A stretch of DNA of 64,000 nucleotides from contig CAJINV010000006.1 of NCBI GenBank assembly GCA_905178155.1, positions 564,398 through 628,397 of the forward strand, written 5' to 3'. This document shows, in pieces, positions 1-64,000 of the stretch. Position 1 is the stretch's first letter; the number at the start of each line of letters is the position of its first letter. This stretch comes from Amoebophrya sp. A120 (Eukaryota; Protista; Dinoflagellata). A program made the translations under genes and the position numbers. The notes under the pieces are model-generated. The model worked only from the letters and a program-made list of their open reading frames with translations. It did no database searches and was not told the DNA's origin.

Positions 1-38
1 CGTCTTGATATGGGGAGGGGGGATTTTTCCTTTTGATA
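1..38. mobile_element. Introner family B, right end only
   Basis: GATATGGGGAGGGGGGATTTTTCCTTTTGATA terminal repeat. Confidence 0.8.
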
Positions 39-3000
39 CCCGCGCATTCTTTCCCGCCGGGCGCGCACCCCGCGGAGGGCGCCTTGCCGGCATTGCAGTT
101 TTCTTGGTTACACCCCTCGGTCGAAAAACATTTCCCGTCGGCGTTCACGTACCCCCGCTGCGCACAGGTGCCCTCGTAGGCCGGGTGCATGTGCAGGGCG
201 AACATCCGAAACCGCCCGTGGTCCTGCGGGGGGGTCCAGGCGTAGGACCCCGACTCGCGGTGAAACGCGTCAATAACGGAATTGTGCGCCCACTGCGGGT
301 GTGTATCCAAAACCGCGTTCGCGGCGCGCTTGGTCACCGGGAAGCGCACAGACTGCGCGCATCAAAGTGAAAAAAGCCCCCACAACATACGCAAAAGGCG
401 ATTTGTGTTGCTGGATTTGTGTACACAAATGAGCTTTGTATTGCAGCGAGAGTTTGTCGGCATATTCTAAGCCCATTTAGATACGCATCCGGCTAGCAGC
501 TGCGCATGAGAAACAAGGCTGAGATAGGCGAAAACGCATGACAGGCTGGCTGCACAATGCGCCACATGGGTGCCGTTTGCCTTGTACGCAAGACAGACCT
601 GATTTGTGGTCGCAAATCAGCATCACAAATTTCCTTTTCGATATGAGGAGGGGGGATTTTTTCCTCGCAATAGCGCGAGGGGGTGATGCGCCTCGTCTAT
701 GGATGTGTCAGAGTTGAAATCGACAAAGTTGAAATAATTTCCCATGCATAAATTGCAAGGCATGAACTGCCTCTCTTGCAGGGACGGCAAGTGATGCCGA
801 CTGTCAGCCTGTTTGGGGTCTGCGATAGAGCTACTAAAGTAGCACTACAGAAGACGCCTTCTGGGGCCCCTAAACAGCATGACAAACTGGATTTGGACGG
901 TGCCAAAATTTGTCATGCGCCGCTTAGAAATTGGGCTTCCACCTGGTATCGATTTTATGCATTACAAATTATTTCAACTTTGTCGATTTCAACTCTGACA
1001 CATCCATATCGTCGGATATTGGTGTAAAGTCCGCGGTCGTGAGCATTACCCGAATGTACTGTAGTTGTGCCATGGCCCGACCCACCCCGCTATCAGATGT
1101 AAAAGTGTCTGGGTCTGGAAGAATGCATGTTTGTCATGCTTGTCTGGGATGATTCTTAAATCTGTCATGCACGTTACCCAAGAGCCCAATTGTTCTGTCA
1201 TGCAGAAACGCAGTTTGTCATGCAGAATAGGCAACACCTAGAAGCTCAGAAAGTTGTCATGCTGAGCCAGCACTTGTGGCGTCCTCCTGATACGCCACTC
1301 AGCATCACAAGTTCCCAGACCCAGACATTTTTGCATTTGATACCCGCACCAGCGGTGGGCGTCTCTGTGCGGGAACAGGTAGGGGTAGCGGTTCTGGTAG
1401 TCGTGGTTGCCCAGCATGGGCAGCACGTACCAATCCTCCTTCGGATCGTCAAATTGATGCAGAAACTTTTCGAAATACTCTTCCAACTGGCTCATAATGC
1501 CCAGATGCGTCAAGTCTCCCACGACAATGACGTCCTGACGAGGATGTGCAACCATTGAAGCCGAGGACCCAGCAGGACTTGCCCCCGAGGATTCAGGGAG
1601 CTGAACAATTGTGGTAGTAGTTGTTGTAGTCCCAGCAGATGACTGGTCTTGTGCCTCCACTAGCCTCATCGCGTCCGCGTGCCACGTGCAACTCCCCCGG
1701 TCCGCCTTGCAGGCCTTCACGCCCGCGTCGAGGGCGGCGGGTATGGTTGTGGTATCATGGGGAAACGACTGTTTCTCCCCGTTTTCGGTCCTCTTTCGCG
1801 TTGCGGACTCGGATTCGGGGGGGTCCAGCTCGAACCATTTGTCAAAGTGGCTTGTGTAACCCAGTATGCATTGCAAATATCCCTGGATGTCTGGAAGGTG
1901 GCAACTTGTGATCCTGTCTGTGGATTCTAAAAAAATTTGTCCTGCATGAGGAGGAAGACGAGTCCAGCTTTTGCTACGCGGAGAGGGCATTATTTCTCAT
2001 GCGGGTTAGGCATCAAGAAGGACTCAGAAAATCTGTGATGCTAGAGCATAATACATCAAACAGACATCATGGATTATGATGCAAAATGTGCATGACAAAC
2101 TTGGGCTCTTCCAGACCCAGACATATTTGCACTGGATACCCAGCTGGGGATCCCCGATGACGAAGAGATCGTAGGAGGAAGTGGTCCTCAACATCGATAT
2201 CATATGTAAAAACGTCCCCATCCCAGAGTTGTCAATGCAAATGCGCAATGACAGGAACATTTGTAATGCGCATCTCCATGAGACGCATTTCCAGTCGTGT
2301 TTTGGCATTTGTAATGCTGTAAACAGGATGAGAAAGTGGCTTTCTCATGCGGCCTTCCTTTCTAGCCAGCACTACACTGCAGATCGAAACTTGTCATGCA
2401 GAACTCCCAAAACTTGGGGACTTGCGTTGCAGACTTTCCATCTTGACTATGGTGTGGGGACGTTTTTACATAGGATAATCGAGTGCTGGCCATTATTATA
2501 CTCGAGGTCCGTGTAGTCGTAGGACGTAATCTCATCATCTCCGGAAAAATTATCCCCCATCGCCTCCCTCACATCGTCACTGTAGCCTATTTCCTTCTCC
2601 GAAGTGGTGCACTCCGAGGCGATGCCCATTTCATCACGAAAGTACCCGTCCCCTGTGCAGTATCGGACAAACGTGAACGCCCTGTCCAGCACCGCCTGGT
2701 CCCTACTCCAATCGCCGTCTTGCTCGCCAATGCACCAGCACTCGGTGTGTGCCAGCCCAGCAATCCACCGACCAGTATCCCACAGAAAAAGACCGACAGG
2801 TCATATTTGTAATGCAAAAATAAATACACAGGAAAATCTGTCATGGGCGAGGCCATAACATCCTGTTTAGGGCATGCAATACAGATTTTTTTGTCTATTT
2901 ATTTTTGCATTACAAATATGACCTGTCGGTCTTTTTCTGGGGGATAACCAGCTTCGTTTGCACACACCGGCGCGCCGCTAGAAGAAGTTGCAGTACTTCT

Positions 3001-3915
3001 TCTTTTACCCTGCGTGCTGGTGGCGGCCGTGGCGGTGGCCGCAGCTACTGTCTGCTGCAACAAAGCTGCTTTTGCCTCCTGGTCGCGGTGGACGTCGAGA
3101 GGATCGCTTTGCTGGTCGGTTAAAGTTGCAGCCACCTCAGCCAGTTCCTGCTCCGATGTTGGTGTTGCACTGGCCCTCGTTCTTTCCCACTTTTCCTTCG
3201 TCCGCCCTGGCATCAAGGAGGCACTGGACGTGGAGGCCGAAGAACCTCGCCCTGCGAGGAAAGTAGAAGATGTAGAACCTGCAAAAATTTTTGCGCCACC
3301 ACCTCTACCAGCCTTAGAAGTTGTGCTGGTTTTCATTTTATTGTTGCTCTGGTCGGCCTCGCCGCTGCGAATCATGTTGTTCACCGCCTGTTTCACTTTC
3401 GTATTCATCGTCTTGGTAGAAGTAGTAGTTCTCCATTTTTTCTCAAGCAAAACCTTTCCAAACGCAGCTCCTGTAGTTCCCGAAGAGGTCAATTTTGCAG
3501 ACCTTTTTGCACCAGCAGCTCCACCTTGTACTACGTGGCTCGACGCACGAAGGAGCTTCACGGTCTTTCTCGAAGATGACAAGGGTGAAAACCGAAAGGC
3601 GTCCGCTGGCAAGAAAATGTGAAGCTGGTAGTGTTGTTGTTTTGTTTGGTGGGGAAGAAGACCTCCATGCCGGTCCTGTTGTAGTACCCACTCCGGAAGA
3701 AGACCGAAGGTGTAGTTGTTGCCTTCATCCAGCGCATTAAGAACCACATCAGCCACAAAGAGAATAGATAAAACCAATGCTTTCAGTAGCAGCTTGTGCT
3801 TGTTGTTGAGTACTAGTGACATTAATTTCCGGGGGAAGTAGTTCATCTTGTGGGGAGTTCCAAAGCCAAACCGGAAGCAGGAGCACGGTGTTGAAGTTGT
3901 AAAACTGATTCTCAT
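1..3915 (-). CDS. Calcineurin-like metallophosphoesterase with N-terminal hydrophobic segment; multi-exon, 3' end runs off the window
   Basis: Removing introners joins exons carrying LFVIGDPQLG, VIVVGDLTHLG and LPMLGNHDY (metallophosphoesterase motifs I-III). Frame stays open to position 39. Start codon uncertain (3915 or 3847). Confidence 0.75.
360..672. mobile_element. Introner family B
   Basis: B-type TIRs (left end CAT instead of TAT); flanks gcgcg/gcgcg. Confidence 0.85.
698..1008. mobile_element. Introner family D
   Basis: ~43-bp TIR TATGGATGTGTCAGAGTTGAAATCGACAAAGTTGAAATAATTT; flanks tcgtc/tcgtc. Confidence 0.9.
1091..1342. mobile_element. Introner family A
   Basis: TIR TATC..ATG.AAAA.TGTCTGGGTCTGG; flanks cccgc/cccgc. 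Confidence 0.9.
1865..2138. mobile_element. Introner family A
   Basis: A-type TIRs; flanks cccag/cccag. Confidence 0.9.
2198..2477. mobile_element. Introner family C
   Basis: TIR TATC.T..GTAAAAACGTCCCCA; flanks atcga/atcga. Confidence 0.9.
2776..2946. mobile_element. Introner family F
   Basis: ~50-bp TIR TATCCC.CAGAAAAAGACCGACAGGTCATATTTGTAATGCAAAAATAAATA; flanks accag/accag. Confidence 0.9.
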
Positions 3916-4360
3916 CTTACCAGAACGGCTGCAGCGCGAAGATGAATTAAGAACTAGGAAAGCACTAAAAACCTAAAACTACGTCAGTATGGCTATAAAT
4001 ATTTATCTCAATAGCATCCAGATTGTGTGAAGGGAAACAAAATCTAACTTGTTTGATGTGCGTTTCGGTTTTTTAAGCCTTAGTGACATACATATACTAG
4101 GTTGTAAGCATATTATTCGAGGCGGGCCCTGGTGAAGTTGTCGTAGAAGATGTGTAACTACCTCCCTGCTGATGTTTCTTTCCAAAACGACGACGGACAC
4201 AAGCACAACTAGAGCTGAACTGCGAAAGAACGCTATTACTTAAGATAGCATTTTTAGAAACAGACGACGTGTGTGGGACGAAGTTTCACTTACGAGTTTG
4301 TTCAGAACGATAAAGACATGAGTTCGACGCGTTGCACGATTTTTTATTTGACGAGGAGCG

Positions 4361-4408
4361 AGCTGTGTACCACGATATGGAGCTGTGTACCACGATATGG
4401 AGCTGTGT
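4361..4408. repeat. Short tandem repeat, 20-bp unit x2.4
   Basis: AGCTGTGTACCACGATATGG repeated. Confidence 0.8.
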
Positions 4409-5424
4409 AGTTTGTTAGTGTACGATCTGGGTCTGGAACAGCGCCGGTTTGTCATGTTTGTCTCGCAGGAGTCTTACCTCTGTGAGGATGAATGAGCAGG
4501 AAATAAAGAGCCTGTACTTAGTTGCCTGTTCTTTCTTTTTCAGGTAGTAGACACGCGGTAACTGCTTGATCCAAACTTGGCAGTCCACTTGTTGTGAGAA
4601 CCTTCCAGAGGCGGCGCAGCACCTCCCCGCGGGGTCACTGATCAACGCGAGGTAGTTGTGTGCCGATTTGTTGTTGACCAGTTTAAAACACACTTTCATC
4701 TGCCATCCAGTGACCCACACGAGAAACTACTGCGCTCCATTTGCAAATGTAAAACGTCAAGTGCCGCCGTCAATACAGAGAGCGGACAGCTGCACTGGTA
4801 CAATCTTGCAGGCTTCTTGCGTGGTGCCCCCTTAGTCTATCTCGCGGAATAATATTGATCCAAAAAGAGGAAAAAAAAGCAGTATAGAACCGGATACAGA
4901 AACAACCACTATCGATGATCGAATGTTCGTCCTGCAATAGCATAAGTGGCTGAAAACATCAGAAACTACTGACATCAAAACCTTTAGGAGCTTAAGCCGA
5001 ACAAAATCTCATACCTGGGAGTTCTTGTTCTTTCAAAAAGAGAAAAACTTACTTCGCGTCAAAAATACAATACAGCAGCAGATTTGCAAGCTGCTGTAAT
5101 TTTTAGAATCGGATAAGTAGAAAATCACACGAAATACATGCATGCGGTGGTAGGTACACTCTTACTCATGGTGGTCCTGCTGCCCGTCAGTTGCATCCGG
5201 AGCGAATTTTTATCGTACGGAAATTCATTTCTTGCCCCCAACTGGAAGTAGAACCTGGTCGACCCACGTCACTTGGCTTAGTGTTGGTGGAAAGTTGTAT
5301 TTGTAAGTAGTTCATGCATATTGGATACTTCCACACACTGATTTCGATTTCTTTACAAACCGCCCGTAGTTCAAGTGCTTCTCACGAACTCGCGGTTCCT
5401 TTTGAAGCAATGCGACTACATGCA

Positions 5425-6625
5425 TCAGAAGTTAGTAGTATTACGAAGAGGCCGCGCAGGACGTATTAGTATAAACCAGATTCCTCTTCCATCTGGGGCG
5501 ATTATTCCGAATTTCAATTTGCATAATTTCTCGTAGTTTTCCAGGAAATTCTCCACCCATTTGCCGAAATCTGAGTTTGGAATTCATTTTTTGTCATGCT
5601 GAAATCATAATGCAGAATTTTTTGTCATGCGAAAACAGCCAACTGGAACACGACGGAAAAGAAAAAGCAAAAGCTATAGAAGTCAGTACCATCCCGCGTG
5701 ATCTTGTTGTTCAGGGCAACCACGTCTCCATTCTTGTAGGCGGTAATCAGGTCCATATCTTCAATCAGGTCAAACTATGAATTGCAAAAGTATCGCACTC
5801 GACTCGTATAAATGCATTACAAATTTCCTCAGCATGAGAAATAAAATTTGTAATGCTAATTTGCCCTAAGAACAGGATTTGTAATGCATGATTTCAATAC
5901 GAGTACGATACTTTTGCACAGGATACAAACGTAATGCCCTTGGTCGCCAGGCCGTTCTTCGAAAACATGCGGGCAAGCTGTTTGGATAGATGCATTACAA
6001 ATTTTCCCAGCATGAGAAATACAATCTGTAATGCGGATTTACCTTAAGAAAAATATTTGTAATGCAAGATACAATTAAGTACCTGACTCGCAGCTCGCTT
6101 CTCCAAGTACGCCTTTTCCAGTTCGGAGTACACAATGAAGCCGTCGCCGTTGTGTATGACAGTGCACAACCCCCCTCCGCCTCATTTGTCATGCAAGAAT
6201 CGAAATCAAGTTGCTGCCTTGCGGCACTGTTTGCATGACAAATTGTGGAATATTAGCCCAAACAGTACTACAGTTCCAACGCAGGAACTTGTCATGCACA
6301 GGCTCCATGGCTGCTGGTGTTTGTATTGCTATTCATGCCATGTCCAAATGTATGAGGGGGCGGAGGGGGAGTTCTTGTGCACGGTCATATTGTCGTCAAA
6401 AAACTCAAAGGCTTCGTCCGCAAATTTCTGCACGCCCGCCGCATTCGCCCCGCTAGAAAAGCACCGTGCGATCTGGGCGTTCTGCAGGAAAAACGGCTTT
6501 TGGGTCTGCGCGATAGCAGACAGGTTCGAAGCGGCGGGCGCGGTGGTGTGGGTCACCAATTTTCGGGACGCAGTTGCTGCCGCCCCCCGGTTGAGGAGGA
6601 GTCTCGTCGCGCCGAGCATGGACAT
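5425..6625 (-). CDS. EF-hand protein with mitochondrial-presequence-like N-terminus
   Basis: Spliced product reads AFEFFDDNGDGFIVYSELEKAY (canonical EF loop). Arg/Ala/Ser-rich leader ends ...ARCFSS. Two introners and two GT-AG introns. Confidence 0.7.
5776..5925. mobile_element. Introner family E
   Basis: TIR TAT....TGCAAAAGTATCG.ACTCG; flanks caaac/caaac. Confidence 0.9.
5978..6082 (-). other. GT-AG intron derived from a family E introner
   Basis: GTAC...ACAG ends; interior matches the core of the adjacent E element but TIRs are lost. Confidence 0.75.
6155..6389. mobile_element. Introner family G
   Basis: TIR TATGAC.GTGCACAA..CCCCCTCCGCC; flanks ttgtg/ttgtc. Confidence 0.85.
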
Positions 6626-7540
6626 ACTTTCAAAACTTCCTGTCGTGAAAAAAAAAACGCTATTTGGTTACACAGGTAAAGAAGTCGGGGCGGTGCTGTG
6701 TATACTTAAGTTAGTTCAGATGAAACTTCTTCGATCGATCCAGTGTACAACTAGCTGGGGCTTAATTATAAAACGGCTTGATGTTCTATCAGAACTGTCG
6801 TCCAGCCAGGTTGTCGCTTCTGTTCTAAGTACCTCGGGGGAAAAGGGGAGTGCTGGAGGTCCTCCTGTTTTATTGTTTGGGAGCGGTTAAGGATGTGTGA
6901 AATAAAAGCGAGGTGGCCCTGTGGCTGTGCCATCTTCTCTCTACAAAGTGAAATTTACTACTATACCACGACAAAAATAAAGAACACCGATAGAGCGCTA
7001 GGCTTTCTGCACTCATAGTTCTCGTGCGACGTGAGGAAAATGAATTTGATACGACAAAAGCAAAACGTAAACGAAGGACCGAGTCTTCTACTTCACATAA
7101 TCACGAAAAAAAACGACCGAGGATTCCATTTCCCACGCTCTTCAGAATGATGATGTAGGACTGCTCAAAGTCAATAAACCGATCAAGAACTAGTTCTTCG
7201 CTAGTACAAATAAACCGACGGCACAACTTCCGACTCGGCGGATAGTCTTTGTAGTTATGACGAAAAGGCCACTTGATAGATAATTTAGGGCTGCAAGAAA
7301 ACACAAGTATACTCGACAAATGCATTATACGGCTGCAGGCGATAACTTTTCCACCAGCCTCATCGATTTAATGATTTTTTATTTTTGGCTCTAGATTTCT
7401 TGAAAAATAGAGCAGGATGCATCCATGTGAAGACATTCGTATGTCGTCTTTTTTCGCGCACGAGGTCCGTTCGTCCTCGCGCGCTGCTTTTTTGATTTTG
7501 CACAACAAAAACAGCGCACCTCAAATTATCCTATCTCCAC

Positions 7541-10445
7541 TTAGCGTCGCTTGTAAATGCAGGCTTTCGGTGCGGTCCAACCAGCATTTTTGTCCCCACT
7601 GCCTTTCCCGACGGCGCGCTTCCCCTTGTTTCCCTGGTCGGAGCTCTTGCCGCCTTTACTTTTGTTCTTCCCACCCTTTCCTTTACCTTTCCCCTTCTTG
7701 CCTCCGCCGCCCTGTGGTTTGTTTTGCCCTTTAATATGATTCTTGCCTTTGCCTTTGCTGTTACCCTTCGTCTTCCAGGGAACATCAGTAGATCCAGATT
7801 CAGCACAAGCTCCGTCCTTTTGCTTTTCCCCAGTTGTACTACTAGTAGCTGCCGTTTCCTTACTCCCTGCAAGAAACAGTCCCCACCGGTAGAAGCCCTT
7901 GATAAAAAAGTGCGTGTTTGAGTTCTCCTCAAACAACCGGCTCTGTTCCCGCTGTTTCATGCGCCAGCAGTTTCCGTTCTTTTCCACATCCGCGACAAAT
8001 TTCTCCACGCCGGACTCCTGAAACCGCGACTGCACCTCCGCGATGAGCAACAGACCGGTCTTTATGCAGTGCAAAAGCATCGTATTAGTATAAATTGCAT
8101 TACAAATTTCCTCAGCATGAGAAATGAAATTTGTAATGCGGATTTAACTTGAGAAATGAATTTGTAATGCATTAATGCAATTACTACGAGTACGATACTT
8201 TTGCACAGGATAGTCTTCGGCTTCAACAACCGACTCGCTTCCTTGATCGCGTTTAGACAGTCCGTGCCCATCAGCGCGAGGTATCAACTGTAAACATGTC
8301 ATCTGGGTTTGGAAACTTGTAATGCTGCGTTCGGAATAGTGAATGCCCTGTGATGCACAGCCAAGCATGAGAAATATTGTCGCGGCTTTCTTAGTATTGC
8401 GCTTTTCGCATGACAAATTGCGTTCTATTGCATGGCAGGCCAAAGGGTCTCTTCTTGGCCACGCATCACAAACTTTTCGGTTATGCCAGACAAGCATGAC
8501 AAACCTTAGTGCAACATCCTTCCAGACCCAGATCGATGTTTGCATTTGATACGAGGCACAAAATCACAACGTCCTGGGTACCGGTGGCGAGGGGCACGTG
8601 CTGGTTGATATTTGCGGCCTGGATCTTGATAGTGGTGGAATTGGTTTTGAGATTTTTACCATCACACGACGATGATCTCTCGATCTCCCTGCTGACCAAA
8701 TCAAAGTTGTGAACCTTGATCTGTTTCTTCGTGACGACCTGGCTTTTTCTGGTGGAGCCCTTCTGACCCGAAACCTGATCTACTTGTTCTGAACCACCAC
8801 CGGTTGTACCACCAGTACTCTGGATCGACACAAACCGGCCTTCCAACTGTCTGGCGATTTTCGCTTCGCCGCATCCCAAATCGGTAATGTTGAAGAAGGA
8901 TGAAGTAGTACTACTAGAAGGTAATGATGTCCCCTCCTGCTTATTTTTGCTAGTAGTGGTCTGACCCGCGGCCTCGTCGTCTGAGCCGCTATCGGCTGCT
9001 GACTTGGTTCCCTCCTTGTTCTTTTCTTTCTTGGAAAGCACTGCATCTTCGTCTGAACTAAGACCCTCTTCCTCCTCCTCCTCTGACATTTCATCGTCCA
9101 AATCTACATCCGAATCCCCGCCCAGGATTTCCGCGTCAGACTGAGAGAGTGCAGAATCTTCCTCTTCTAGCTCCTCTTCCTCTTCTGATTCAATCGACAT
9201 GTCGTCTCGGTCGTCGTAGGAAACTTGCTTCTTGCCCTGCACCCGTGCATGACGACCCTCATCGCTGTCATCATGCGCCACAACTCCACTAGTCCTCATA
9301 GTACCGTTTGAAGCAGTCGAGATCGAGAATTTCTTTTCCAAAAACTCAATCAACACGTCGACCGGGTTCGAGGGCCATTTCCGCACCTGCTCCGCAAACC
9401 CTGCGTGGTATTTTTCGAACAAGTGGGGCTGCGATTTCCACCACCGCAACGCGTTTTGCCCGGTGGAAGTGTAAAGCTGCTCGTTCAACTCCCGGAACCT
9501 GGCGGCCTGCAGTTTGGCGGAGAGTTGAGGCTGTGGCGCGGCTGGAGTTGATTCGCCGACGGAGGCATCTTCGTCTTGCTTTGAAATTTTATTTTTTCCT
9601 TTATTTTTGTTCTTCTTCGTCTTCCCCGCGGTCTCTCCTCCCGCCGAAGGTTGTTGATCACGCTGCTGTGTGCCGTTTTTATCACGACCTTCTGCACCGC
9701 CGCCTGCAGTGGAGGCTCCTGGGCCTCCCAAAGTAGTAGATATCGCTGGTTGGTCCGCGGCACCACTACCGGCTACGACCTCCGTCGGCTGCGCACCTCC
9801 ATTCTGCCTCGCTTTCAAGGATGCGAGTAAGCTGGACACCGCAGAAACCTTGGGTTCTTTCGGTTGGTCGACGATAACACTCGGTGCAACGCTCCTACTG
9901 GCAGTCGTGTTCGTAACTGGTGCTTTCGTCTTTTGCTTTTTCAAAGGCGGTTCGGGTGGTTTCTCTGTTGCGTTTTTCATCTTCGCTTGTTCCGCAATAT
10001 TTTCATTATGCTGGGTTCTCGCTGTTTGGTTCCCATCTTTTTTGTCTTTGTCCTCACCGGTCGTGGTCGCGTTCTTCCCGGCTTTGCGCTTCTTGGACTT
10101 CTTCATGGACGAGGGGAGCTTGGATGTTGACGCTGCCTCGGAAACAACAACTGAGGGCACCGTAACTGTTGCCGTTATCTTCACATCCTGCTTTTTACTC
10201 GGCGCTCGACCCACCGCTGCAACAGCAACGGTACTGTTGGTTTCAGTTGTACTGGAAACAGTACCCTGTCTCTTCTTCTTCTTCATCGCCTTCTTTTTTG
10301 TGCCTGGATTGTTGTCACCCGCACCAGGATCCTCCCCACCCCCAGGGAAACTGAACGCCTGGCGTGCTTGGTCTAAAGACGGAAGCTCTGCGAACAGAGT
10401 TCGCAACTCCGCTTGGAGGTCGGTCTCGCTCGTCTTGATGGGCAT
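7541..10445 (-). CDS. RRP8: Ribosomal RNA-processing protein 8 (LSU rRNA m1A methyltransferase / nucleomethylin)
   Basis: ARFRELNEQLYT, YHAGFAEQVRKWPSNPVD, DLGCGEAKIA, CLALMGTD, LLIAEVQSRF and C-terminal KACIYKRR; three exons. Confidence 0.93.
8063..8212. mobile_element. Introner family E
   Basis: E-type TIRs; flanks gtctt/gtctt. Confidence 0.9.
8282..8551. mobile_element. Introner family A
   Basis: A-type TIRs; flanks cgagg/cgagg; splits the CL|ALMGT motif. Confidence 0.9.
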
Positions 10446-11899
10446 GGTCTAAAATTTGCGGGCCGAGAAGGAACAGAAGTAATATCAACGAACTAAAAAC
10501 GCAGAAATGCTATATACCCACTTCTAGATGTCACGGACAACGTGCGTCCTAAACAAACAACCTGCGGTAAACCTACTCTATGCCCTCGCTGATCATGTAG
10601 TTGTCAACCGTCGAATTCATGCTTCTTTTGTCGCTGTGTCAAAAAAAATTTTCTTGCAAAGATGAACCCAGGGACCTTGTTTCCAACTGCAGCTACGTAG
10701 TAAAATTTTCTGATCCGGGAGTGAATCGCTTTATCTGCCCTTGCGCTTTTGCTTCGCTTTTTCGATCATAAACCATTCTGTTCTGTAGAGCTGCTGGACC
10801 CACTGCTGGATCCATGTTGAATGCGAGACTGCATAATTCATAAGGTTACAACTGATGGATCATTGTGTGATGTGAGATATCAACCACTTTGCTCCCGGCC
10901 TTGTAAGGTCGCTGCGGCAAATGATAGCAACTTTTTCATTCACGTCGCGGATCGTCCTGTATCCTTCAGAATTCCACTGTGGATCCGAGCGTTATTTCGC
11001 GTTGGATTCCACTTCGATAGCATTTTCAGAACCACACGAAAGAGCATTTCTGTGACCACTGTAGACATTTACTACGACCGACATCCTCCACATTCAGCAG
11101 TACATCACGGTGTAAAAGTACTTCAGGTAATTTCTAACTTACGTGCCCACTGTCGCTTGAGATCACCACTACAGAGCATCAAACATGACTGTTTCTCCCA
11201 CCTGCAGGGCGTCCTCACGAGGACCCTGTCTGATTTGTAAACGATACTTATTCATCATCCTACCGTCTCTCGTTGAGTTGTTGCCGTTCATTTTATTTTT
11301 TCATCCTCTTCAAGACCATTGCTCTGTGGCGCTGCATGGTGATTGTTCCGCCAATAATGGGTCCTCCAACAAGAGTTGTATTGTTGTGCAAAAATTCTCA
11401 GAGCATGAAGTTTCGCTATATAATCCTCTTCTCGACAGATCAAAAATTATCTAGACTTGATGTGCTGCTTTAGAAACATTTCCACAGCAGAGCTCCGGTA
11501 TTTTCTATTCGACAAAATATCTATTCAAGTGTGTGTGATTGTGTTCTAGTTTTCGATAAAATACAGTGTTTTCGACGATTAAAAAGTTATGTTCTAGTGT
11601 TCGATAAAATACAGTGTGCTAAAATACAAAATACAAGTGTGCTTGTGCTAAAATACAAAATACAAGGGAGAAAAACCGTGGTAAATCGCTCTGCTGTGGT
11701 TTTTATAGCGTTGTCAACAAACTAGAAAGTGCCACCGTCTAGGAAACTCAAGTGTGATTGTATCAGAAGGGGATTGTCGTGTGAAACTTAACAATAAATT
11801 CAGAAGCCACTACTTAAATATAAATTCTTCAATTTTACAAAAAAAACTCAACGGAGCACTGCACTAGACCACTTTCCAATCCAAGAAAGCTTTCCAGCT

Positions 11900-14769
11900 T
11901 TAGCGGAACCGCTTGAAGAGCTTCTTGGCCGCCTTCTTGGCCTTCCGGGCCGCCTTCTTCGCCTCTTATCAAGACGGAAAATCCCCCCTCCCAAGGTCGA
12001 AAACGAAACTTGTCGTGCTGTATTTGAGTACACAAATCGACTTGCAATGCTACAAGCCCAAGAGCCGCAGCTGCGGCCGAGTTTGCAGGTAGTTTGTCAT
12101 GCTGCTTTCCACTTCCAGCTGCCTCCTGTCATGATGAAGGCGCAAAGGTTTAAGTATTCCCACGCCACCCAGCGCTACAGTGTCAACACCTTTCCGCCCT
12201 AGCATTACAAAGCTTCCTTGTGGCCACAAATCAGCATCACAAATTTCCTTTTCGATATGGGCAGGAGGGATTTTTCTTCTTGATACCTCGCGCTTCGCCT
12301 TCTTGGCGGCCTTTTTCGCGGCTTTCGCGGCCTTTTTCGCCGCCTTCTTGGCCTTCCGGGCGGCCTTCTTCGCTGCCTTGGCGGCGCGGGATTCCTTGAT
12401 CTTGTTGCCAATCGCCCCTGCCTATGGATTGCAAAAGTGTCTGGGTCTGGAAACTTGTGATGCTAAAATGTGCATGATGAAAACACTGCCGTAATGACAG
12501 TCCGGCATGACAACTTCCTCCAAAAACGCTTCGTCATAGGCAATCCGCATGAGAAGCTGCGCTTTGGCATGAGAAAAGAGGCTGCGGCTTTTGTTCATTA
12601 CGCAACTACACAGACTTTATTCTAGGAATGTGGAGCTAGCATTACAAGTGCCAACCTTCCAGACCCAGGAGACATTTTTGCAGTGCATACTGCCGCGCCC
12701 TTCAGCTTGTTGCCGACGGCGGTGGCACCGGCCTTCACCTGCTCGCGGAAGGTCATTTTCGTGGCGGGCGACTCATCCGAACCAGTGTCCTCATCCGAAC
12801 CAGTGTCATCCGCGGCGTCCATCGAGGTCGGCAACGGCGTCGTGGTCGTGGTGGTCATCATGCCGTCGGGATCAACTGCAAATATATGTCTGGGTCTGGA
12901 AGAGCCCAAGTTTGTCATGCACATGTTGCATCATCCATGACATCTGTGATGTATACTCTAGCATCACAGATTTATTCCTGCGGCCTTCTTGATGCCTTTA
13001 TTCTGCATGACAAATTCCCTCTCCGCATAGCAAAAACTGGACTCGTCTTCCTGGTCATGCAAGACAAATTCTTAAACATAAAATCAAAAGGCAGCGTCAC
13101 AAGTTGCATCCACTTCCAGACACAGACATATTTGCAATGGATACTCGGCCTTGGCGGAAGCCGCCTTCTCCTCCTCACTCATTTCGGCGCACTCGGTCTT
13201 CTTGTCCTTACCGAAGGTGATCTTCGCATCATCCCCGCAGCAGAACTTTCCGGTCGGGCACAGCTGGTCTGGGGGCACCATGCCCTGGCAGCACTGCTGA
13301 AACTTGTTGGGGTGGTCCTCGCAGATGGGGTTGCCGCTGGCGCAGGCGGCGTCGACGACCTGCGGGGTCGCCTCCGGGTTGCCGGCCAGGAAGAGGATCT
13401 GATACGAAAACGAAAATGTTGATTTTTGTCATGCGGAATTAACATTTCAGAAACACACTGTCATGCTGGACATCAATCACTCCACTAGTCCGTGTTTAAA
13501 AACATAAAAACAATAAAAATCTAAATTTCTCATGCGGTTTTAACACTACAATAAACCACACCTACAGAAGCACTACTTATACCCTTGAGCACTCCTCGGA
13601 ACCATCGGGCAGTCCGCCGGCCTCGCCCTCCATTGCGTACGTCCAGTTCTCGTCCTTGGTGTCCTCAATGGTGGTGGTGCCGAGCTTTCCATCCTCCACT
13701 TTCTCGACCGTCTTGGTACCGAAGTGCCCCATCACATCGTAGGCGAAACAGGGTTATGCATTAGTAGAAGAGCATCGTGTGCTTGGTGAGAATTTTTGCA
13801 TGACAGATTTCATCTTTAGAACTGAAAGTGAAGTAATCGAACTTTTGTCATGCGGAGTACGATACTTATGACAAATCAGATCTGTCATGCAATTTTCCCA
13901 AAAACGACTACGACACTTCTTACAAGCATAGCTTTCTTTGGGGGATGATGTCGCAGGACTTGGAGTCGATCATGAGCTTGACACACGCGGCGCAGGCTTG
14001 CTCCTTCTTGCTGTATTTTTCGGATTTTTTGATTCAACTTGTCATGCATAAACTACACGATTGAACAAATCTGTCATGCTTTTCTCGCATCGCTGTCGTT
14101 TTAACAAAGAAACAAAAAATATCAAAAGAAAAAAGTTCGTCACGATCACTCATGCGCATTCTTGCAATACAAAATTGTGTGTCATGCGTAAAAATGCATC
14201 ACAGCCAAACTTCATTAGGGATTTCCCTAGTGTTTCTGCAATACAAGGAAAGTTTGTGATGCTGAGAAAGTTTGTAATGCAAAACCTGCAAGTTAGTGAC
14301 TGTGACAAACATTTTTCTCTCCATAAAAAAAATTATACCCGTACACCCCCTCGCCTTCCCTTTCGCCCGTAGTTCCATCGTCGGGCAGTGCGGGCTTCAA
14401 CACCTCGTCCAAATTTGAGTAACTGGCCGACCAGGCGGTCTCGCAGACTGGCAAAGCAGAGGTGGTCGTGGCGGAAGAGAGCAAATATCAACTGCAAAAG
14501 TGTCTGGGTCTGAAAACTTGTGATGCAAGTCCGTGAACAATAAGTACGCTGTGATGTGCCGCCAAGCATGACAAGTTTTTTCGTGCTTCTGTACTGCGTA
14601 TTTCGCATGAGAAACTGCGCTTTTGCATGACAGGCAAGAGGGCCTCTTTGTGGCCACGCAATACAGACTGCAGAGCCATGCCAGACTGGCATTACAAATC
14701 TTGCAATCTCGCAGACCCAGACATTTTTGCAGTTGATAGCAAACCCAAGGTTGCGACTGTTGATCGCAT
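11900..14769 (-). CDS. Hypothetical secreted Cys-rich protein with Thr/acidic linker and Lys/Ala-repeat basic tail
   Basis: Spliced N-terminus MRSTVATLGLLSSATTTSALP (signal-like); Cys-rich middle (ACAACVK, QQCCQG, KFCCGD); ends AAKAAKKAARKAKKAAKK...LFKRFR*. Confidence 0.7.
11967..12285. mobile_element. Introner family B
   Basis: B-type TIRs; flanks cctct/cctcg; gives GT...AG ends on the sense strand. Confidence 0.9.
12423..12689. mobile_element. Introner family A
   Basis: A-type TIRs; flanks ctgcc/ctgcc. Confidence 0.9.
12870..13143. mobile_element. Introner family A
   Basis: A-type TIRs (left end GAT); flanks gtcgg/ctcgg. Confidence 0.85.
14486..14738. mobile_element. Introner family A
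   Basis: A-type TIRs; flanks gcaaa/gcaaa. Confidence 0.9.
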
Positions 14770-58734: not shown

Positions 58735-61700
58735 TCAGAAGTACTTGAGCGTTTCCCTGCACGGGTCCTATCGTGAGGAAAGATCCCCCCTCCCCGTACC
58801 AAAAAGGGACGCATCTGAAAATTTGTGATGCTGATTTGTGGACACAAATCGTCTCTGTAATGCAAGAAGGCCAATCCAGCGACTCCGCCGCATTATGCAG
58901 GCGGTTTGTGATGCTATGGGGCCTACAGAGTACACATTTGCCATGCTACGCGCCTACGTCAGAACCCTTCTACTTAGGCTTGGCATGGGCCTGCAGTCAT
59001 CTGCTGCAAGACAGACCTGATTTGTGTGCGCAAATCCAGCATCAGAAACTTCCCTTTGATATGGGGTGGGGGGATTTTTCTTTTTGATAGGTCCATAAAC
59101 TGCCTTACCACCTCGTCGGTGACGAGTTTTCTCCTTTCCCTGTGCTTATCAAATGCAAACGTGTCTGGGTCTGGAAGAATGCCAGTTTGTCATGCTTGTC
59201 TCACTTGACTCTTACATCTGTGGTGCGTGAGCAGCAAGAAAGCCTCTGCTTCCCTGTCATGCAACAACGCAGTTTGCCATGCGGAAAACGAATTACATAG
59301 CAGCGCAGCAAAAACTTGTCATGCTTGGCTATGTATTGCAGTGCGCCAAACATTCCCAGACTTGCATCACAAGTTTCCAGAGCCAGACATATTTGCAATG
59401 CGTAGTGCTCGTTCACGATCAATTTCAACTCGGCAACGAGTTTGTTCTTCACTTCCCCGGTCGTCATTCTGCCGGAGCCGTACTCCTCGCCGATTTTTAT
59501 CGAAAGGAAAAAGCCCCCCTCCCAATATCGAAAACGAAATTTGTGATGCTGTATTTGAGTACACAAATCGTCGTGTATTGCTACAAGGCCAAGCGCCGCA
59601 GTTGTGGCCTCGTTTGGAGGCAGTTTGTCATGCTGTTTCCTACTTCCAGCTGCCTCCTGTGATGCTGCAGATGCAAGGCCGTCCCACGCAACCCAGCACT
59701 ACAGTCCGCATTTTTTCCCTTCTAGCATGACAAAGCTGATTTGTGGCCACAAATCTGCATCACAGATTTCCGTTTCGATATGGGGAGTGGGAATTCTTCC
59801 TTTTCATAATCTTTTTAAATTCCTCGTCGTCCTCCAGCACATACCGCAAGTACTCGTACGGAACGTCCACATCTAAGTTCGCCCCTTTTTCTATCCCACA
59901 GAAAAACTCAGGCAGGTCAGATTTGTAATGCATAGAATGAATTCACAAAAAGATCTCTCAAGGGGCTCGCCCATAGCATGCTGTTCAGGACACGCAATGC
60001 AGATATTCTTGTCTATTTATTTTTGCATTACAAATGTGACCTGTCTGCATTTTTCTGTGAGATATTTTCCCGGTGCTCCTCCAGGGTCTGGCCCCCGCCG
60101 GAAAGGGCGTACTTCATGACTTTGTCCTTGATCTGCTTCTCCTATCAAATGCAAAAATGTCTGGGTCTGAAAGAATGCCAAACTTGTCATGCAGGTTTTC
60201 CATGGCCCACGAGGTCTGGTATGTGGGACGTAGCACGACAGATCATTCTGTGAGAGTTCTATCATGCATATCCTGCATGAGAAACTGCCTCGCGATTCGG
60301 TCAAAAGTGGACAGCTTTTGGTAATCTTCACGCAACACAGACTTTGATATGATTTAGATTCAGCATGGCAAGTTGCTTTGTTCCAGACCCAGACACTTTT
60401 GCAATGCATATCTCCGAGTCGGTGACGAAAATGGTTGACGGGGTATCCGTATCCTGTGCAAAAGTATCGCACTCGTAGTAATCGCAATCATGCATTACAA
60501 ATCTCCATACCAAGGTAAAACAGCATGACAAATTTCATTTGTCATGCTGACCGAATTTGTAATGCGATTTCTACTAGTACGATTATACTTTTGCAATGCA
60601 TAATCCGCGGACGAAGACATCTTGGTCGTGTGGCCTTGGAGTGCGGGGAAAAACTTGGAATGGATCAAAGCGGGCTTCTGGAGGTTTAGCCGGGGCGCAA
60701 TGTCGCGGGTTACCTGATAGATTAAGATTTTTATATGGCGCATCCGCATGATAGATTGAATACTATTGTTCACCAGCAACGGGTTGTAGACGAAATTTGG
60801 GGAGGGTGCAGAAATCCACATAAGAAAAGCGTCTACAACTTCATGCGTGAATATATAAAACTAGCAAAAAGTTGTAGTAGCACTCAACCGCTATACCCTG
60901 AAAAACGGGTCTTGATCAATCGCCTGGGGGATCAGACACCGCACGTCGGTTCTTCCTCCAAAAATGTGCGGAAAGGCCTCGGGAAAACTCGGCGCGGCCT
61001 GCACCGCGGTGTAGAAGCATTTCCCTATGTTCGCGGAATCGGTCAACCCCAGCGCGCCCTTTGCTTGGTTGAACGTGATTTTCTTCGCGATTTTCGCAAC
61101 TAGCGGGTACATGGTGCCCATGTAATCAAAGTTCGTGAAAATGAAAGTTTTTTCCGGGTTGAAGCCGCACGCGATGATGTCCTTGATATTCGCGTAGGCG
61201 AGTTTGTGGGCCTCCTCGGCGGAGATGTTTTCCTTAAACCAGGACTTCTCGTCGTCCGTTAACTGAATCACCAATGGTATGGAAGCGTCAGGATCAAAAT
61301 TTACAAAGTTGAAGTAATTTGCGATGCATAAAACCGATACCAGATGGCACCCACTTATCAAGTGGCGCACGACAAATTTGGGTAGAGCCTAAATTTAGTT
61401 TGTCATGCTGTTTGGGTAAGGAAGCCGCCGCTTGCCATGCTACTTTAGCAGCTGACTTTTTACCCGTCAACAGGCTTACTATCTGCCTCGCTTGCCTACT
61501 CTGCAAGGCAGGCATTTGGTGGCTTGCATTTTACGCATTACAAGTTTTTCAACTTTGTTGATTTCGGTTCTGACACTCCCATAAATGGAACGTCGAACGT
61601 GTCCTGGAGCCACTTAGTGAAAAAAAAGGGCACCAGGTGACCTGTGGAGTTGATTGTGCAGCAGAAAATGGATCTACTTCACAAGGGGGCGATGAGTACT

Positions 61701-64000
61701 TTTTCCGAGGAAATACAAATAACGTCGTGTGTAGTGTTCTTGTGCATGAAAAATCATCTACATGATCTCTGCAGAAGAGCGATTTCCTCGACATCTCCGC
61801 AGGCGGCAATTTACTTTGCTTTCTGGTCGACACTATTTTCACTTCGGAGTATTAAAAGAAATGCAACGAAAAATTCAAAATCTGTCCCATGATATTGTTT
61901 ATACCTATATGCAGTGACTCGCTGCTCGCGCCCCGTCCGGTGTAGAGGTAGAACGGCACGCCCTTTTCGATATGCATTGCAAATATGTCTGGGTCTGGAA
62001 GAGTGTAACTTGTCATGCTACATCTGGATCGTAGAAAAATTTGTGTTGCATGATTACCAAGAGAGGTCCACTTTTGAACAAGTTTAGAGGCAGTTTCTCA
62101 GGCAGGAAAGGCATGATAGAGATCTCACAGAACCTGTCATGCTAGGCCGTGCATGCCAGACCGCGTGCGTCAGCGTCATGGAAAACCTGCATGACAAACC
62201 TAGACCCAGACATTTTCGCATTTGATACTCGACCTGATCCAGCAAAATATCCAGGTCCCGGTGCGTGAAAAACAACCCTCGGCTATTACAGTGAAAAGTG
62301 CCCCCCACCCCTCAAATTGCAAAAATTTGTGATGCGAAGTTTCCAATTGAAAACTTTTTGTCATGCATGAAAGGAGTATGAATCTTTCTGATGCAGAGTC
62401 TAGGCGTGTATCGCATCGCTTGCATGACAAGCGCCGCTCTTGCTGGGGTCTTTTGCAATACAAATTTTCGCTATTCACGATTGGAAACCTGTGATGCTGA
62501 TAGGTGCAAGAGGGCGAATGTTTCATTTGGAAAGGTTTGCAATACAAATGCTTTCAGGTTCGGGGGTGGGGGCATTTTTCATTCTGATATCGGCGCAAAA
62601 ACCGGTGCGCGCGCTTCCCCGTGATTCTTTCTATCCGTTGGATCAAGCTCGCGTCGATCTTGCTGCACCCAAAGTCGCGGACGAGTTTATCGTAATCAAT
62701 CCCCGCATCGGCCTGCACGTCCACCGGGTTGATAACTTGTGATATTACAATGAAAAATGCCCCCCCCAGAACTTGGCAGCATTTGTATTGCAAACCTTTC
62801 CAATAGAAACATTCCCCGTCTTGCATATCTCAGCCTCACAGATAATTTTTCATGCTGAATATAGCTCAAATTTGTGTTGCAGAGAAGCCCAACAGCAGCC
62901 GGATCTCTCATGCAAAAGACGCCTTGCGTGCCTAGATGCTGCAATGAGAAAGGCTCGCAATCCTTTCATGCAAGACAAAAAGCTGTCATTTGGAAATATT
63001 GCATGACAAACTTTTGCCAATTCCGGGGGCATTTTTCATTGTAGTATGTGACTCATCCGCCGGCTCACACTCCGCTTGGGGCGGGTACAGGGGCCGCTCC
63101 TCCGCTTGCGTGGCTGAGGATGGTATATATATTTCATCCTAATTGTTTCTTGCCTCTTGTTCTACTGCGTGACCGTGGTCTACTTTCATTGACAAACAAA
63201 ACCATTGTCCTTAGATCATGTGTAGCTCGATATATAAAAATTCGCAGGACAGCAAAGTGGAGAAACCACCTGCTCTCCTCAACATCTCATGTTCAGCAAC
63301 ACCTGTATTCCAATCTCAATTTCAATTTCATTCTCCTGGTTTATTTACGAAAAAATACCTTTTTCCCCCTCCACCGGCGTGCACTGCACCGTGACCTTCA
63401 AAGTTTGCTTCTCCGCGTTGAAGGTGAATTTCGTGAGCTCCATATGCAATGCAAAAGCATCGTACTAGTGGAAAATGCATTACAAGTTAGCGGCCCAGCA
63501 TTATGAATGAAATTTTTTGTAATGCTGATTTACCTTGAGAAAGGGATTTGTAATGCAAAAACGCAATTAGTACAACGAGTACGATGCTTTTGCACTGCAT
63601 ACTCCACCTTCCCGAGCAAAATGGTTGATTCCAACACCGGATTGATTTGGCAGTTCAAATTCCAGCTTGGTAACCTCACTAGCCGGAGCTCCTGAACGGT
63701 GTCTGGGACCTTAAATTGGTCGTACATCGTCTCACCGTACCTGCGAGTTATTTGGGTTGGAACTTTCTGATGTCATCTGTCATGCGGACAGGGAATTCCA
63801 CATGCAAACCAGCACTGCTTTCCTGGCATGACAAATTTAAGAAAAACGTACTCCTATCGAGAAACCCATCCAAAAATACAGTTCCTCCGCGTGTTTCCTG
63901 GCCATCTTGAAAACGTATCAAGTGCAAAAATGTCTGGATGTCTGGAAGAGTGTAGACTTGTCATGCAGATTTTTCATGACCCATGAGGTCTGGAAGGCGG
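58735..64000 (-). CDS. WARS: Cytosolic-type tryptophanyl-tRNA synthetase with N-terminal AlaX-like domain; 5' end outside the window
   Basis: [76 protein letters not shown]; 12 introners plus GT-AG introns 60714-60896, 61642-61904, 63114-63358, 63741-63879. Confidence 0.96.
58769..59089. mobile_element. Introner family B
   Basis: B-type TIRs; flanks ggtcc/ggtcc. Confidence 0.9.
59147..59404. mobile_element. Introner family A
   Basis: A-type TIRs; flanks gtgct/gtgct. Confidence 0.9.
59498..59808. mobile_element. Introner family B
   Basis: B-type TIRs; flanks atttt/atctt. Confidence 0.85.
59892..60064. mobile_element. Introner family F
   Basis: F-type TIRs; flanks ttttc/ttttc. Confidence 0.85.
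60143..60410. mobile_element. Introner family A
   Basis: A-type TIRs; flanks tctcc/tctcc. Confidence 0.9.
60450..60602. mobile_element. Introner family E
   Basis: E-type TIRs; flanks atccg/atccg. Confidence 0.9.
61278..61583. mobile_element. Introner family D
   Basis: D-type TIRs; flanks aatgg/aatgg. Confidence 0.9.
61971..62227. mobile_element. Introner family A
   Basis: A-type TIRs; flanks ttcga/ctcga. Confidence 0.9.
62284..62589. mobile_element. Introner family J
   Basis: TATTACAGTGAAAAGTGCCCCCCACCCC...GGGGTGGGGGCATTTTTCATTCTGATA; flanks tcggc/tcggc. Confidence 0.9.
62743..63046. mobile_element. Introner family J
   Basis: J-type TIRs; flanks tgtga/tgtga. Confidence 0.9.
63443..63601. 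mobile_element. Introner family E
   Basis: E-type TIRs; flanks ctcca/ctcca. Confidence 0.9.
63916..64000. mobile_element. Introner family A, left end only
   Basis: TATCAAGTGCAAAAATGTCTGGATGTCTGGAAG. Confidence 0.8.

What the first reader, a model, noticed from the sequence alone, without database searches (positions are those of the whole stretch)
1..64000. About 70 MITE-like introners of ~10 TIR families share one end rule (5-bp TSD + TAT...ATA) and act as non-canonical introns
Seen: the families have unrelated TIR interiors, yet nearly all start TAT followed by an A-run around positions 9-15, end in ATA, and sit between 5-bp direct repeats of variable sequence. They interrupt essential genes (TrpRS, importin alpha, RRP8), so they must be removed. 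Established: IR/DR-bearing non-canonical introners were described in Amoebophrya A25/A120 (Farhat et al. 2021), and to my knowledge their excision machinery is unresolved. Inference: one transposase type with a 5-bp stagger, and one structure-based excision system, serve all families.
Basis: partly seen in the sequence, partly recalled or inferred. Interest (0 to 1): 0.75.

Follow-up and report, generated by a model that had tools for sequence, protein, structure and literature searches.

The report
Transposon introns cut at fixed offsets
About 70 small hairpin-ended transposon copies of an already published kind (the "introners" of the parasite Amoebophrya) fill 30% of this window, and all 16 checked are missing from likely messenger-RNA contigs with a cut that fits one base before and four bases after the element whatever those bases are, a simple rule that likely reflects a rewired spliceosome.

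Summary
Observation confirmed: 72 elements (18.9 kb, 13 families), 66 ending TAT...ATA, 49 with an exact 5-bp duplication; 0 in shuffled controls. They match the published Amoebophrya A120 introners, whose TAT+7+AAA ends and a 5-bp repeat example are in Farhat 2021. Likely-mRNA contigs (one study, two samples) skip 16 of 16 readable elements as element+5 nt. One register alone fits all: 1 nt before TAT, 4 nt after ATA in transcript sense. Two copies that have lost the duplication pin it exactly, so the duplication is not needed. None is GT-AG, and a 292-element outside set shows no GT or AG preference. Interiors are not unrelated: TGTNATGC occurs in 65 of 66 copies, all 13 families. No transposase was found. 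I favour a U1-less spliceosome (0.55): the cut makes the terminal T intron base +2, that base varies less than its mirror base (1 vs 8), and three repeat-less relatives are GT-AG introns. A Euglena-like separate machinery is the rival (0.3). I found the offset rule in no paper searched, but this scan already noted it and the motif on other pieces of this genome.

The parts
1091..62227 (.). Family B1, 31 copies (252-346 bp): 1091-1342, 1865-2138, 8282-8551, 12423-12689, 12870-13143, 14486-14738, 19505-19760, 21528-21789, 21927-22190, 23570-23823, 24766-25027, 25893-26161, 27869-28130, 28201-28462, 29008-29325, 29755-30100, 30127-30391, 31024-31277, 36962-37227, 37907-38168, 39595-39851, 40074-40357, 40859-41111, 46216-46467, 46556-46835, 48890-49192, 50081-50345, 56783-57043, 59147-59404, 60143-60410, 61971-62227
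2198..39546 (.). Family B2, 8 copies (279-300 bp): 2198-2477, 22897-23182, 33750-34037, 34102-34401, 35358-35636, 37559-37838, 38321-38612, 39268-39546
360..59808 (.). Family B3, 8 copies (305-547 bp): 360-672, 11967-12285, 20694-21022, 25276-25822, 28634-28953, 55210-55514, 58769-59089, 59498-59808; a ninth is cut by the window start (1-38)
5776..63601 (.). Family B4, 6 copies (148-159 bp): 5776-5925, 8063-8212, 25077-25224, 49834-49981, 60450-60602, 63443-63601
698..63046 (.). Families B5-B13, 19 copies: B5 698-1008, 30438-30744, 61278-61583; B6 2776-2946, 49249-49432, 59892-60064; B7 29472-29708, 34542-34746, 48620-48842; B8 6155-6389, 20169-20395; B9 36357-36589, 40412-40620; B10 41202-41456, 56124-56374; B11 62284-62589, 62743-63046; B12 14120-14325; B13 54845-55136
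29751..30101 (-). Intron pinned exactly: element 29755-30100 with no duplication left, removed with 1 nt upstream and 4 nt downstream (ends GT..TC)
   Evidence: tables 5 and 5c
34098..34402 (-). Intron pinned exactly: element 34102-34401 with no duplication left, removed with 1 nt upstream and 4 nt downstream (ends GT..CA)
   Evidence: joint 34097 to 34403 with no slide, in all 4 runs
25073..36590 (-). 14 further elements skipped as element+5 nt: those starting at 25077, 25276, 25893, 27869, 28201, 28634, 29008, 29472, 30127, 30438, 31024, 33750, 35358, 36357
32101..42310 (-). Transcript unit with a 1,518-codon reading frame across 14 elements; poly(A)-like tail joined at 32101; no Pfam match in the exons scanned
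   Evidence: table 7
17245..17435 (-). Ran intron 1: GT-AG intron with a B4-family interior (81% identity), no terminal inverted repeat, flanked ACAG|G ... ACAG|G
23390..23524 (-). Importin-alpha intron: GT-AG, B4-family interior, no terminal inverted repeat, flanked TTAG|G ... TCAG|G
5978..6082 (-). Predicted GT-AG intron with a B4-family interior (89% identity) and no terminal inverted repeat; boundaries from the gene model only
60894..63138 (-). Part of the tryptophanyl-tRNA synthetase gene, interrupted by the elements at 61278, 61971, 62284 and 62743
21392..23885 (-). Part of the importin-alpha gene, interrupted by the elements at 21528, 21927, 22897 and 23570
7544..10448 (-). 825-codon frame with a partial Methyltransf_8 (RRP8-type) match, interrupted by the elements at 8063 and 8282
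63916..64000 (.). B1 copy cut by the window end

Best explanation
These are non-autonomous inverted-repeat transposon copies that sit between 5-bp target duplications and are missing from likely messenger RNA at fixed offsets (1 nt before TAT, 4 nt after ATA), most likely cut out by a modified, U1-less spliceosome that measures from the paired element ends. Steps: (1) inferred: an unidentified transposase, probably one type, binds arrays of TGTNATGC and inserts the element in either orientation with a 5-bp stagger at essentially random sequence; (2) predicted: in pre-mRNA the two ends pair; (3) shown for 16 junctions: element+5 nt is lost in the 1+4 register, which restores the original sequence and needs neither the duplication nor GT/AG; (4) inferred: the register makes the element's first T intron base +2, so N-U-A-U stands in for the G-U-A-U donor, and the hairpin or a bound protein sets the 3' site by distance; (5) inferred: copies that land in NNAG^G are GT-AG introns in the same register and can then lose their inverted repeats.
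For: Removal: 14 of 14 complete elements in 24990-34530 are skipped and 2 more are read from contig pieces; all 16 lose element+5 and only the 1+4 register fits all (16 of 16; next best 13 of 16), with two duplication-less copies allowing nothing else. RNA nature: poly(T) loose end at 32101 and empty bins between genes; the DNA-like run X1 shows depth 0 for the 3 element-skipping joints listed. Removing element+5 puts 49 of 72 elements in minus-strand frames of 150 codons or more, against 32 and 31 for +4 and +6. Both insertion orientations occur. End pairing: 69 of 72 pair in positions 10-25 and 50 of 72 at the terminal base. For the spliceosome: base +2 differs from T in 1 case (a C, the deviation known from GC-AG introns) while its mirror base -5 differs in 8 (376 oriented elements, p=0.039 uncorrected); all three repeat-less B4 relatives in the window read GT-AG, two with an exon edge pinned by homology; all four Ran introns start GTAT. 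Farhat 2021 reports nearly all spliceosomal proteins plus U2, U4, U5, U6 but no U1 in A120. Shared mobiliser: motif in 283 of 289 perfect-duplication elements in outside loci, neighbour spacings best fit by about 10.5 bp.
Against: No lariat, branch point or factor was seen; contigs cannot show them. No preference for canonical bases: G at +1 in 81 of 241 intact against 16 of 51 diverged copies, AG at the 3' end in 21 of 241 against 2 of 51. The window's apparent gain of G at +1 (6 of 8 changes) did not replicate (1 of 7). The +2/-5 asymmetry is one of three paired tests, post hoc, about 0.12 after correction, with orientation inferred by a model (69 of 72 right on the window it was partly trained on). 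Predicted canonical introns do not share the AT at -7/-6 in general (4 of 34, noisy model). The spliced contigs come from one study and two samples, and their RNA status is the tool's guess; two on-record raw RNA runs did not cover the genes. No transposase found. Helical phasing is weak once related copies are collapsed (period 12 fits as well).
Confidence: 0.55

Rival explanations
1. Same 1+4 code, but read by a separate, spliceosome-independent or dedicated machinery (structure-guided nuclease and ligase, or circle-forming), as proposed for Euglena nonconventional introns.
For: Complete indifference to GT and AG; most ends are predicted to pair; Euglena uses the same logic with fixed 3-nt and 5-nt spacers around a paired CAG/CTG and its machinery is suggested to be distinct (PMC12501133); U1 was not detected in A120.
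Against: The register coincides with U at +2; +2 is more constrained than its pairing partner, which pure pairing does not predict; positions 4-7 of the two ends match in only 39-74% of 289 copies; repeat-less relatives are GT-AG.
Confidence: 0.3
2. The shared end rule is a survival filter, not one transposase: several enzymes move several families, and only TAT...ATA elements with a 5-bp duplication are removed without a scar. This concerns mobilisation and is compatible with either excision route.
For: 1+4 equals 5, so the cutting rule would select for 5-bp duplications. Gozashti 2025 assigns A120 introners to diverse TE classes. The motif also persists in repeat-less introns (11 of 46 hits outside elements lie in the four Ran introns), so it may serve the host.
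Against: All 13 families share the motif at similar distances from the ends (33-34 or 41-45 bp in 68 of 92 ends that have one within 70 bp); the unbiased scan of 440 kb of outside loci found no second end rule (195 of 235 5-bp hits are TAT..ATA), though those loci were fetched by a B1 pattern.
Confidence: 0.25
3. Removal is homology-driven across the 5-bp repeats, or occurs in DNA (somatic excision or template switching in library making).
For: Most junctions can slide within the repeat; hairpins flanked by direct repeats are classic reverse-transcriptase switch substrates (own knowledge); the RNA label of the runs is a guess.
Against: Two copies with 0 of 5 repeat bases left are removed in the same asymmetric register; reading frames depend on removal; skipped forms dominate (depth 166-277 against 5-10 for retained pieces); X1 lacks the listed joints.
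Confidence: 0.05

Closest known systems
Introner elements / non-canonical introns of Amoebophrya sp. A120 (Farhat et al. 2021, PMC7789003; passages, sections 11 and 16, supplement legends; figures not seen)
   Same: Inverted repeats starting TAT, seven variable bases, then three or more A; short direct repeats (5-bp example in Fig. S19 legend); about 240 nt; removal from RNA without GT-AG; no transposase inside.
   Different: The paper gives repeats of 3-5 nt and calls splice sites variable or unknown (Fig. 3 legend). Here the duplication is 5 bp, the cut has one register, the duplication is dispensable, and all families share one motif. The Fig. S23 legend ('1-5 nucleotides') and the sentence on four nucleotides upstream may partly anticipate the offsets; I could not see the figure.
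Euglena nonconventional introns, code N3-CDG...CHG-N5-6|R (Nomura et al. 2025, PMC12501133; abstract, sections 8 and 12)
   Same: MITE-like paired ends, fixed unequal spacers between the paired motif and the cut sites, no GT-AG.
   Different: Spacers 3+5 rather than 1+4; CAG/CTG rather than TAT/ATA; purine needed after the intron, with no such bias seen here; circles reported there, product unknown here.
Fritillaria borealis MITE-derived non-canonical introns (seen through review PMC11282704 section 6 and two passages of PMC13326754; Henriet 2019 itself not read)
   Same: Transposon-derived introns with inverted repeats and duplications, removed by an adapted U2-type spliceosome.
   Different: Preferred AG-AC/AG-AT ends and U1 conserved there; here ends are NT..NN and U1 is reported missing.
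Introners of Polarella, Symbiodinium and Aureococcus (bioRxiv 10.1101/2020.10.14.339549, part 1 of 4)
   Same: DNA-transposon introners with class-specific duplications, some working in both orientations.
   Different: Those carry or co-opt recognisable splice sites and need particular target bases; here target sequence is unconstrained.

Membership tests
Amoebophrya A120 introner elements | Inverted repeats starting TAT + 7 variable nt + A-run | tested here: met
   position counts; definition
Amoebophrya A120 introner elements | 3-5 nt direct repeats at the exon/intron boundary | tested here: met
   49 of 72 exact 5-bp, 20 with one mismatch
Amoebophrya A120 introner elements | Repeated in families | tested here: met
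   13 families; full-length relatives of 64 of 66 copies in outside loci
Amoebophrya A120 introner elements | Removed from transcripts at non-GT-AG sites | tested here: met
   16 of 16 junctions, none GT-AG in the 1+4 register
Amoebophrya A120 introner elements | Host is Amoebophrya A120 | not testable with these tools
   No genome held; inferred from the strain-specific repeat signature and from unchecked scan notes
MITE (non-autonomous TIR transposon) | Short, inverted repeats, constant-length duplication, no coding capacity, many copies | tested here: met
   X1 summed depth over element-rich bins up to 1e5 against about 35 in element-free bins (not a copy number)
MITE (non-autonomous TIR transposon) | Cognate autonomous element with transposase | tested here: inconclusive
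   None in the window or in 170 outside loci; the one long candidate holds only repeat DNA; under 1% of a 115-Mb genome examined
U2-type spliceosomal intron | GT (GC) - AG ends | tested here: not met
   0 of 16 RNA junctions; 1 of 72 elements GT-AG in register
U2-type spliceosomal intron | U at +2 constrained | tested here: inconclusive
   1 change at +2 against 8 at the mirror base, p=0.039 uncorrected
U2-type spliceosomal intron | Lariat intermediate and snRNP dependence | not testable with these tools
   contigs only
Euglenid nonconventional intron | N3-CDG...CHG-N5-6|R code | tested here: not met
   N1-TAT...ATA-N4; exon-start base unbiased
Euglenid nonconventional intron | Release as full-length circle | not testable with these tools
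   no raw reads covering the genes

The most novel reading that the evidence does not exclude
Amoebophrya A120 has a sequence-blind splicing code, N|TAT...ATA-NNNN|, in which a U1-less spliceosome keeps only the +2 U and places the 3' site by distance from a paired end. Its 1+4 geometry equals one transposase's 5-bp stagger, so any insertion in either orientation becomes a scarless intron. The TGTNATGC array, kept even in introns that have lost their repeats, is a host-read intron mark.
Probability: 0.3. Interest if true: 0.8.

Novelty: already known. Interest (0 to 1): 0.5.

Why it matters
The elements are published, but how they are removed is an open question. A fixed 1+4 code replaces 'variable, unknown boundaries' with one annotation rule for tens of thousands of introns. 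It gives exact predicted lariat or circle junctions to look for, and it explains how transposons can land anywhere in essential genes at no cost. With the Euglena 3+5 code it suggests a repeated principle: cutting offsets that sum to the target-duplication length.

Tried and rejected
No host genome was available, so no genome-wide clustering or transposase search. Raw RNA runs X11 and X12 laid 213 and 4 reads, almost all on element sequence, and gave no junctions. The joint table was cut (1,183 rows hidden); one joint (26156 to 28214, X7 only, 25-nt side) joins two element copies and was set aside as repeat noise. Idea that the duplication supplies AG or GT: rejected (AG at the 3' end 2 of 72; a canonical pair within -3..+8 slides for 5 of 72). 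Idea that old copies gain G at +1: seen in the window, not replicated. Idea that canonical introns share AT at -7/-6: true for 3 of 4 Ran introns by reading, not general. Viral contigs: 0 matches to the B1 pattern. The 1.1-kb B5 element in L026 has no transposase-like frame by inspection; it was not run against Pfam. Pfam matched only 2 of 48 exon pieces, none a transposase. Ran exon 3 gave no PDB hit at 1e-8 and exon 4 was not tested, so Ran introns 2-4 are read from sequence. An integrase-type enzyme (5-bp duplications are typical of Copia integrases, recalled; PMC12130899 describes a TIR introner family with Copia/Gypsy homology) remains an untested lead; I saw 22 of 58 A120 rows of its dataset and not family 38.
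Full report
Observation. An unbiased search for inverted-repeat pairs flanked by direct repeats of 2-10 bp showed one sharp class: 43 of 62 hits with a 5-bp repeat end TAT..ATA. A relaxed rule-based search gave 69 candidates and 0 in five Markov-3 shuffles. After dropping 3 mis-pairings and adding 6 degenerate copies found by homology, the window holds 72 complete elements covering 18,922 bp. Forty-nine have an exact 5-bp duplication, 20 one mismatch, 1 two, and 2 none. The duplicated sequence shows no marked base bias. The first 66 fall into 13 BLAST families. The A-run lies at positions 11-15.

The families are not unrelated. TGTNATG[CT] occurs in 65 of 66 copies and all 13 families: 234 hits in 18.9 kb of elements against 46 in the other 45 kb. 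The first inward copy usually lies 33-34 or 41-45 bp from an end and neighbours are most often 31-33 bp apart. Spacings fit a period near 10.5 bp best, but only weakly once related copies are collapsed. Members of a family lie in both orientations relative to the genes, which run on the minus strand.

Outside set. A scan of metagenome contigs with a B1 pattern returned 170 loci, all from one assembly; viral contigs gave none. In about 440 kb (with some overlap) 195 of 235 5-bp-repeat hits end TAT..ATA and no second end rule appeared. A de-duplicated catalogue has 367 elements, 289 with exact duplication, 283 of those with the motif.

Removal from RNA. Contigs of runs X3, X4, X5 (one sample) and X7 (second sample, same study) were laid on 24990-34530. 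All 14 complete elements there are skipped; X7 shows 5 of the 13 joint rows. Two more junctions come from adjacent contig pieces. All 16 lose exactly element+5 nt. The tool only guesses that these runs are RNA. A poly(T) loose end at 32101, empty bins between genes and the absence of three listed joints from the DNA-like run X1 support the guess. Retained pieces over two degenerate copies have depth 5-10 against 166-277 for the skipped form. Two on-record raw RNA runs did not cover the genes. Across the window, +5 removal places 49 of 72 elements in frames of 150 codons or more, against 32 and 31 for +4 and +6, and yields a 1,518-codon frame across 14 elements. TrpRS and importin alpha are confirmed; the RRP8-type match is partial.

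The register. Most junctions can slide within the duplication, but mismatched copies restrict it. Only one register fits all 16: one base before TAT and four after ATA in transcript sense. Copies 29755-30100 and 34102-34401, which have no duplication left, allow only this register; three copies exclude a cut at the element edge; one excludes cuts further in. Intron ends are then NT..NN (CT-AA, TT-GA, AT-AA, GT-TC, GT-CA and so on), never GT-AG. The duplication is therefore not the guide, and an asymmetric cut on a symmetric DNA structure points to an RNA-level process.

Which machine. Against recognition of canonical bases: in 292 oriented outside elements neither G at +1 nor AG at the end is favoured, and the window's apparent gain of G at +1 did not replicate. 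For a spliceosome: the register puts the element's first T at +2; that base changes once (to C) while its mirror base changes 8 times in 376 oriented elements (p=0.039, about 0.12 after three tests). The three B4 relatives in the window that lack inverted repeats all read GT-AG, with Ran intron 1 pinned between residues 32 and 33 and the importin intron's downstream exon pinned by homology; their flanks read ACAG|G..ACAG|G and TTAG|G..TCAG|G, as expected of a duplication in this register, although AG|G is also the ordinary consensus. Farhat 2021 found most spliceosomal parts but no U1. Ends are predicted to pair in 69 of 72. I put a modified spliceosome at 0.55 and a Euglena-like separate machinery at 0.3.

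Mobilisation. No transposase was found in the window or the outside loci. One enzyme type is likely from the shared duplication length and motif, but a 1+4 cut would also filter for 5-bp duplications. The motif persists in repeat-less introns (11 of the 46 outside hits are in the four Ran introns), so it may serve the host as well.

Relation to what is known. Farhat 2021 (PMC7789003; passages, sections 11 and 16, supplement legends, no figures) describes A120 repeats as TAT, seven variable bases and an A-run, direct repeats of 3-5 nt, a 5-bp example, and variable or unknown splice positions. Gozashti 2025 (PMC12130899; passages and 22 of 58 A120 dataset rows) lists duplications of 2-5 nt or none and mixed splice-site origins. 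Passages of PMC12005148, PMC11453091 and PMC13326754 and section 6 of PMC11282704 state no offset rule. Six library searches found no paper stating a 1+4 cut or the shared motif; subscription papers, theses and figure S23 were not visible and may bear on this. The closest analogue is the Euglena code with 3-nt and 5-nt spacers (PMC12501133). I had noted the register before consulting the scan's notes, which report the same offsets and motif on other pieces of this genome; these are unreviewed and are not independent support.

Verdict. Real, and a member of a published class. The added value is a directly pinned cutting code and modest evidence on the machinery. Interest 0.5.

Noticed in passing
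window 16130-17510, minus strand: Ran GTPase gene with four GT-AG introns, all starting GTAT and together holding 11 TGTNATGC copies; only intron 1 has detectable family homology.
   Followed up: partly
window 24766-24852: Raw RNA run X11 has about 200 reads matching this element end but with different flanks, while no gene of the stretch is covered: a transcript elsewhere, or in a relative, retains a near-identical B1 piece.
   Followed up: no
L026 505-1608; L130 72-219: A 1.1-kb B5 element with exact duplication carries a roughly 800-bp GC-rich repetitive insert; a similar insert end adjoins a B2 copy in L130, suggesting a second mobile element that lands inside introners.
   Followed up: partly
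window 25276-25822: A 547-bp B3 copy, about 230 bp longer than its family, is still removed as element+5; a relative of its extra interior lies inside a B1 copy in L013 (4994-5237).
   Followed up: partly
window 13752-13930, minus strand: Candidate old intron with only a 5-bp TATGC...GCATA stem, three motif copies and no duplication; boundaries not resolved.
   Followed up: no
L001-L170: One metagenome assembly holds full-length relatives of 64 of 66 window elements (12 of 13 families) at up to 95% identity; no orthologue of the window's genes was among the fetched loci.
   Followed up: partly
element ends, positions 4-7: The two ends of one copy often differ here (39-74% match) while positions 9 and 11-13 match over 90%, and the same few variants recur across families, like a bipartite transposon end.
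   Followed up: partly
window 4426-4513: Isolated fragment of a B1 end in apparently non-coding DNA.
   Followed up: no
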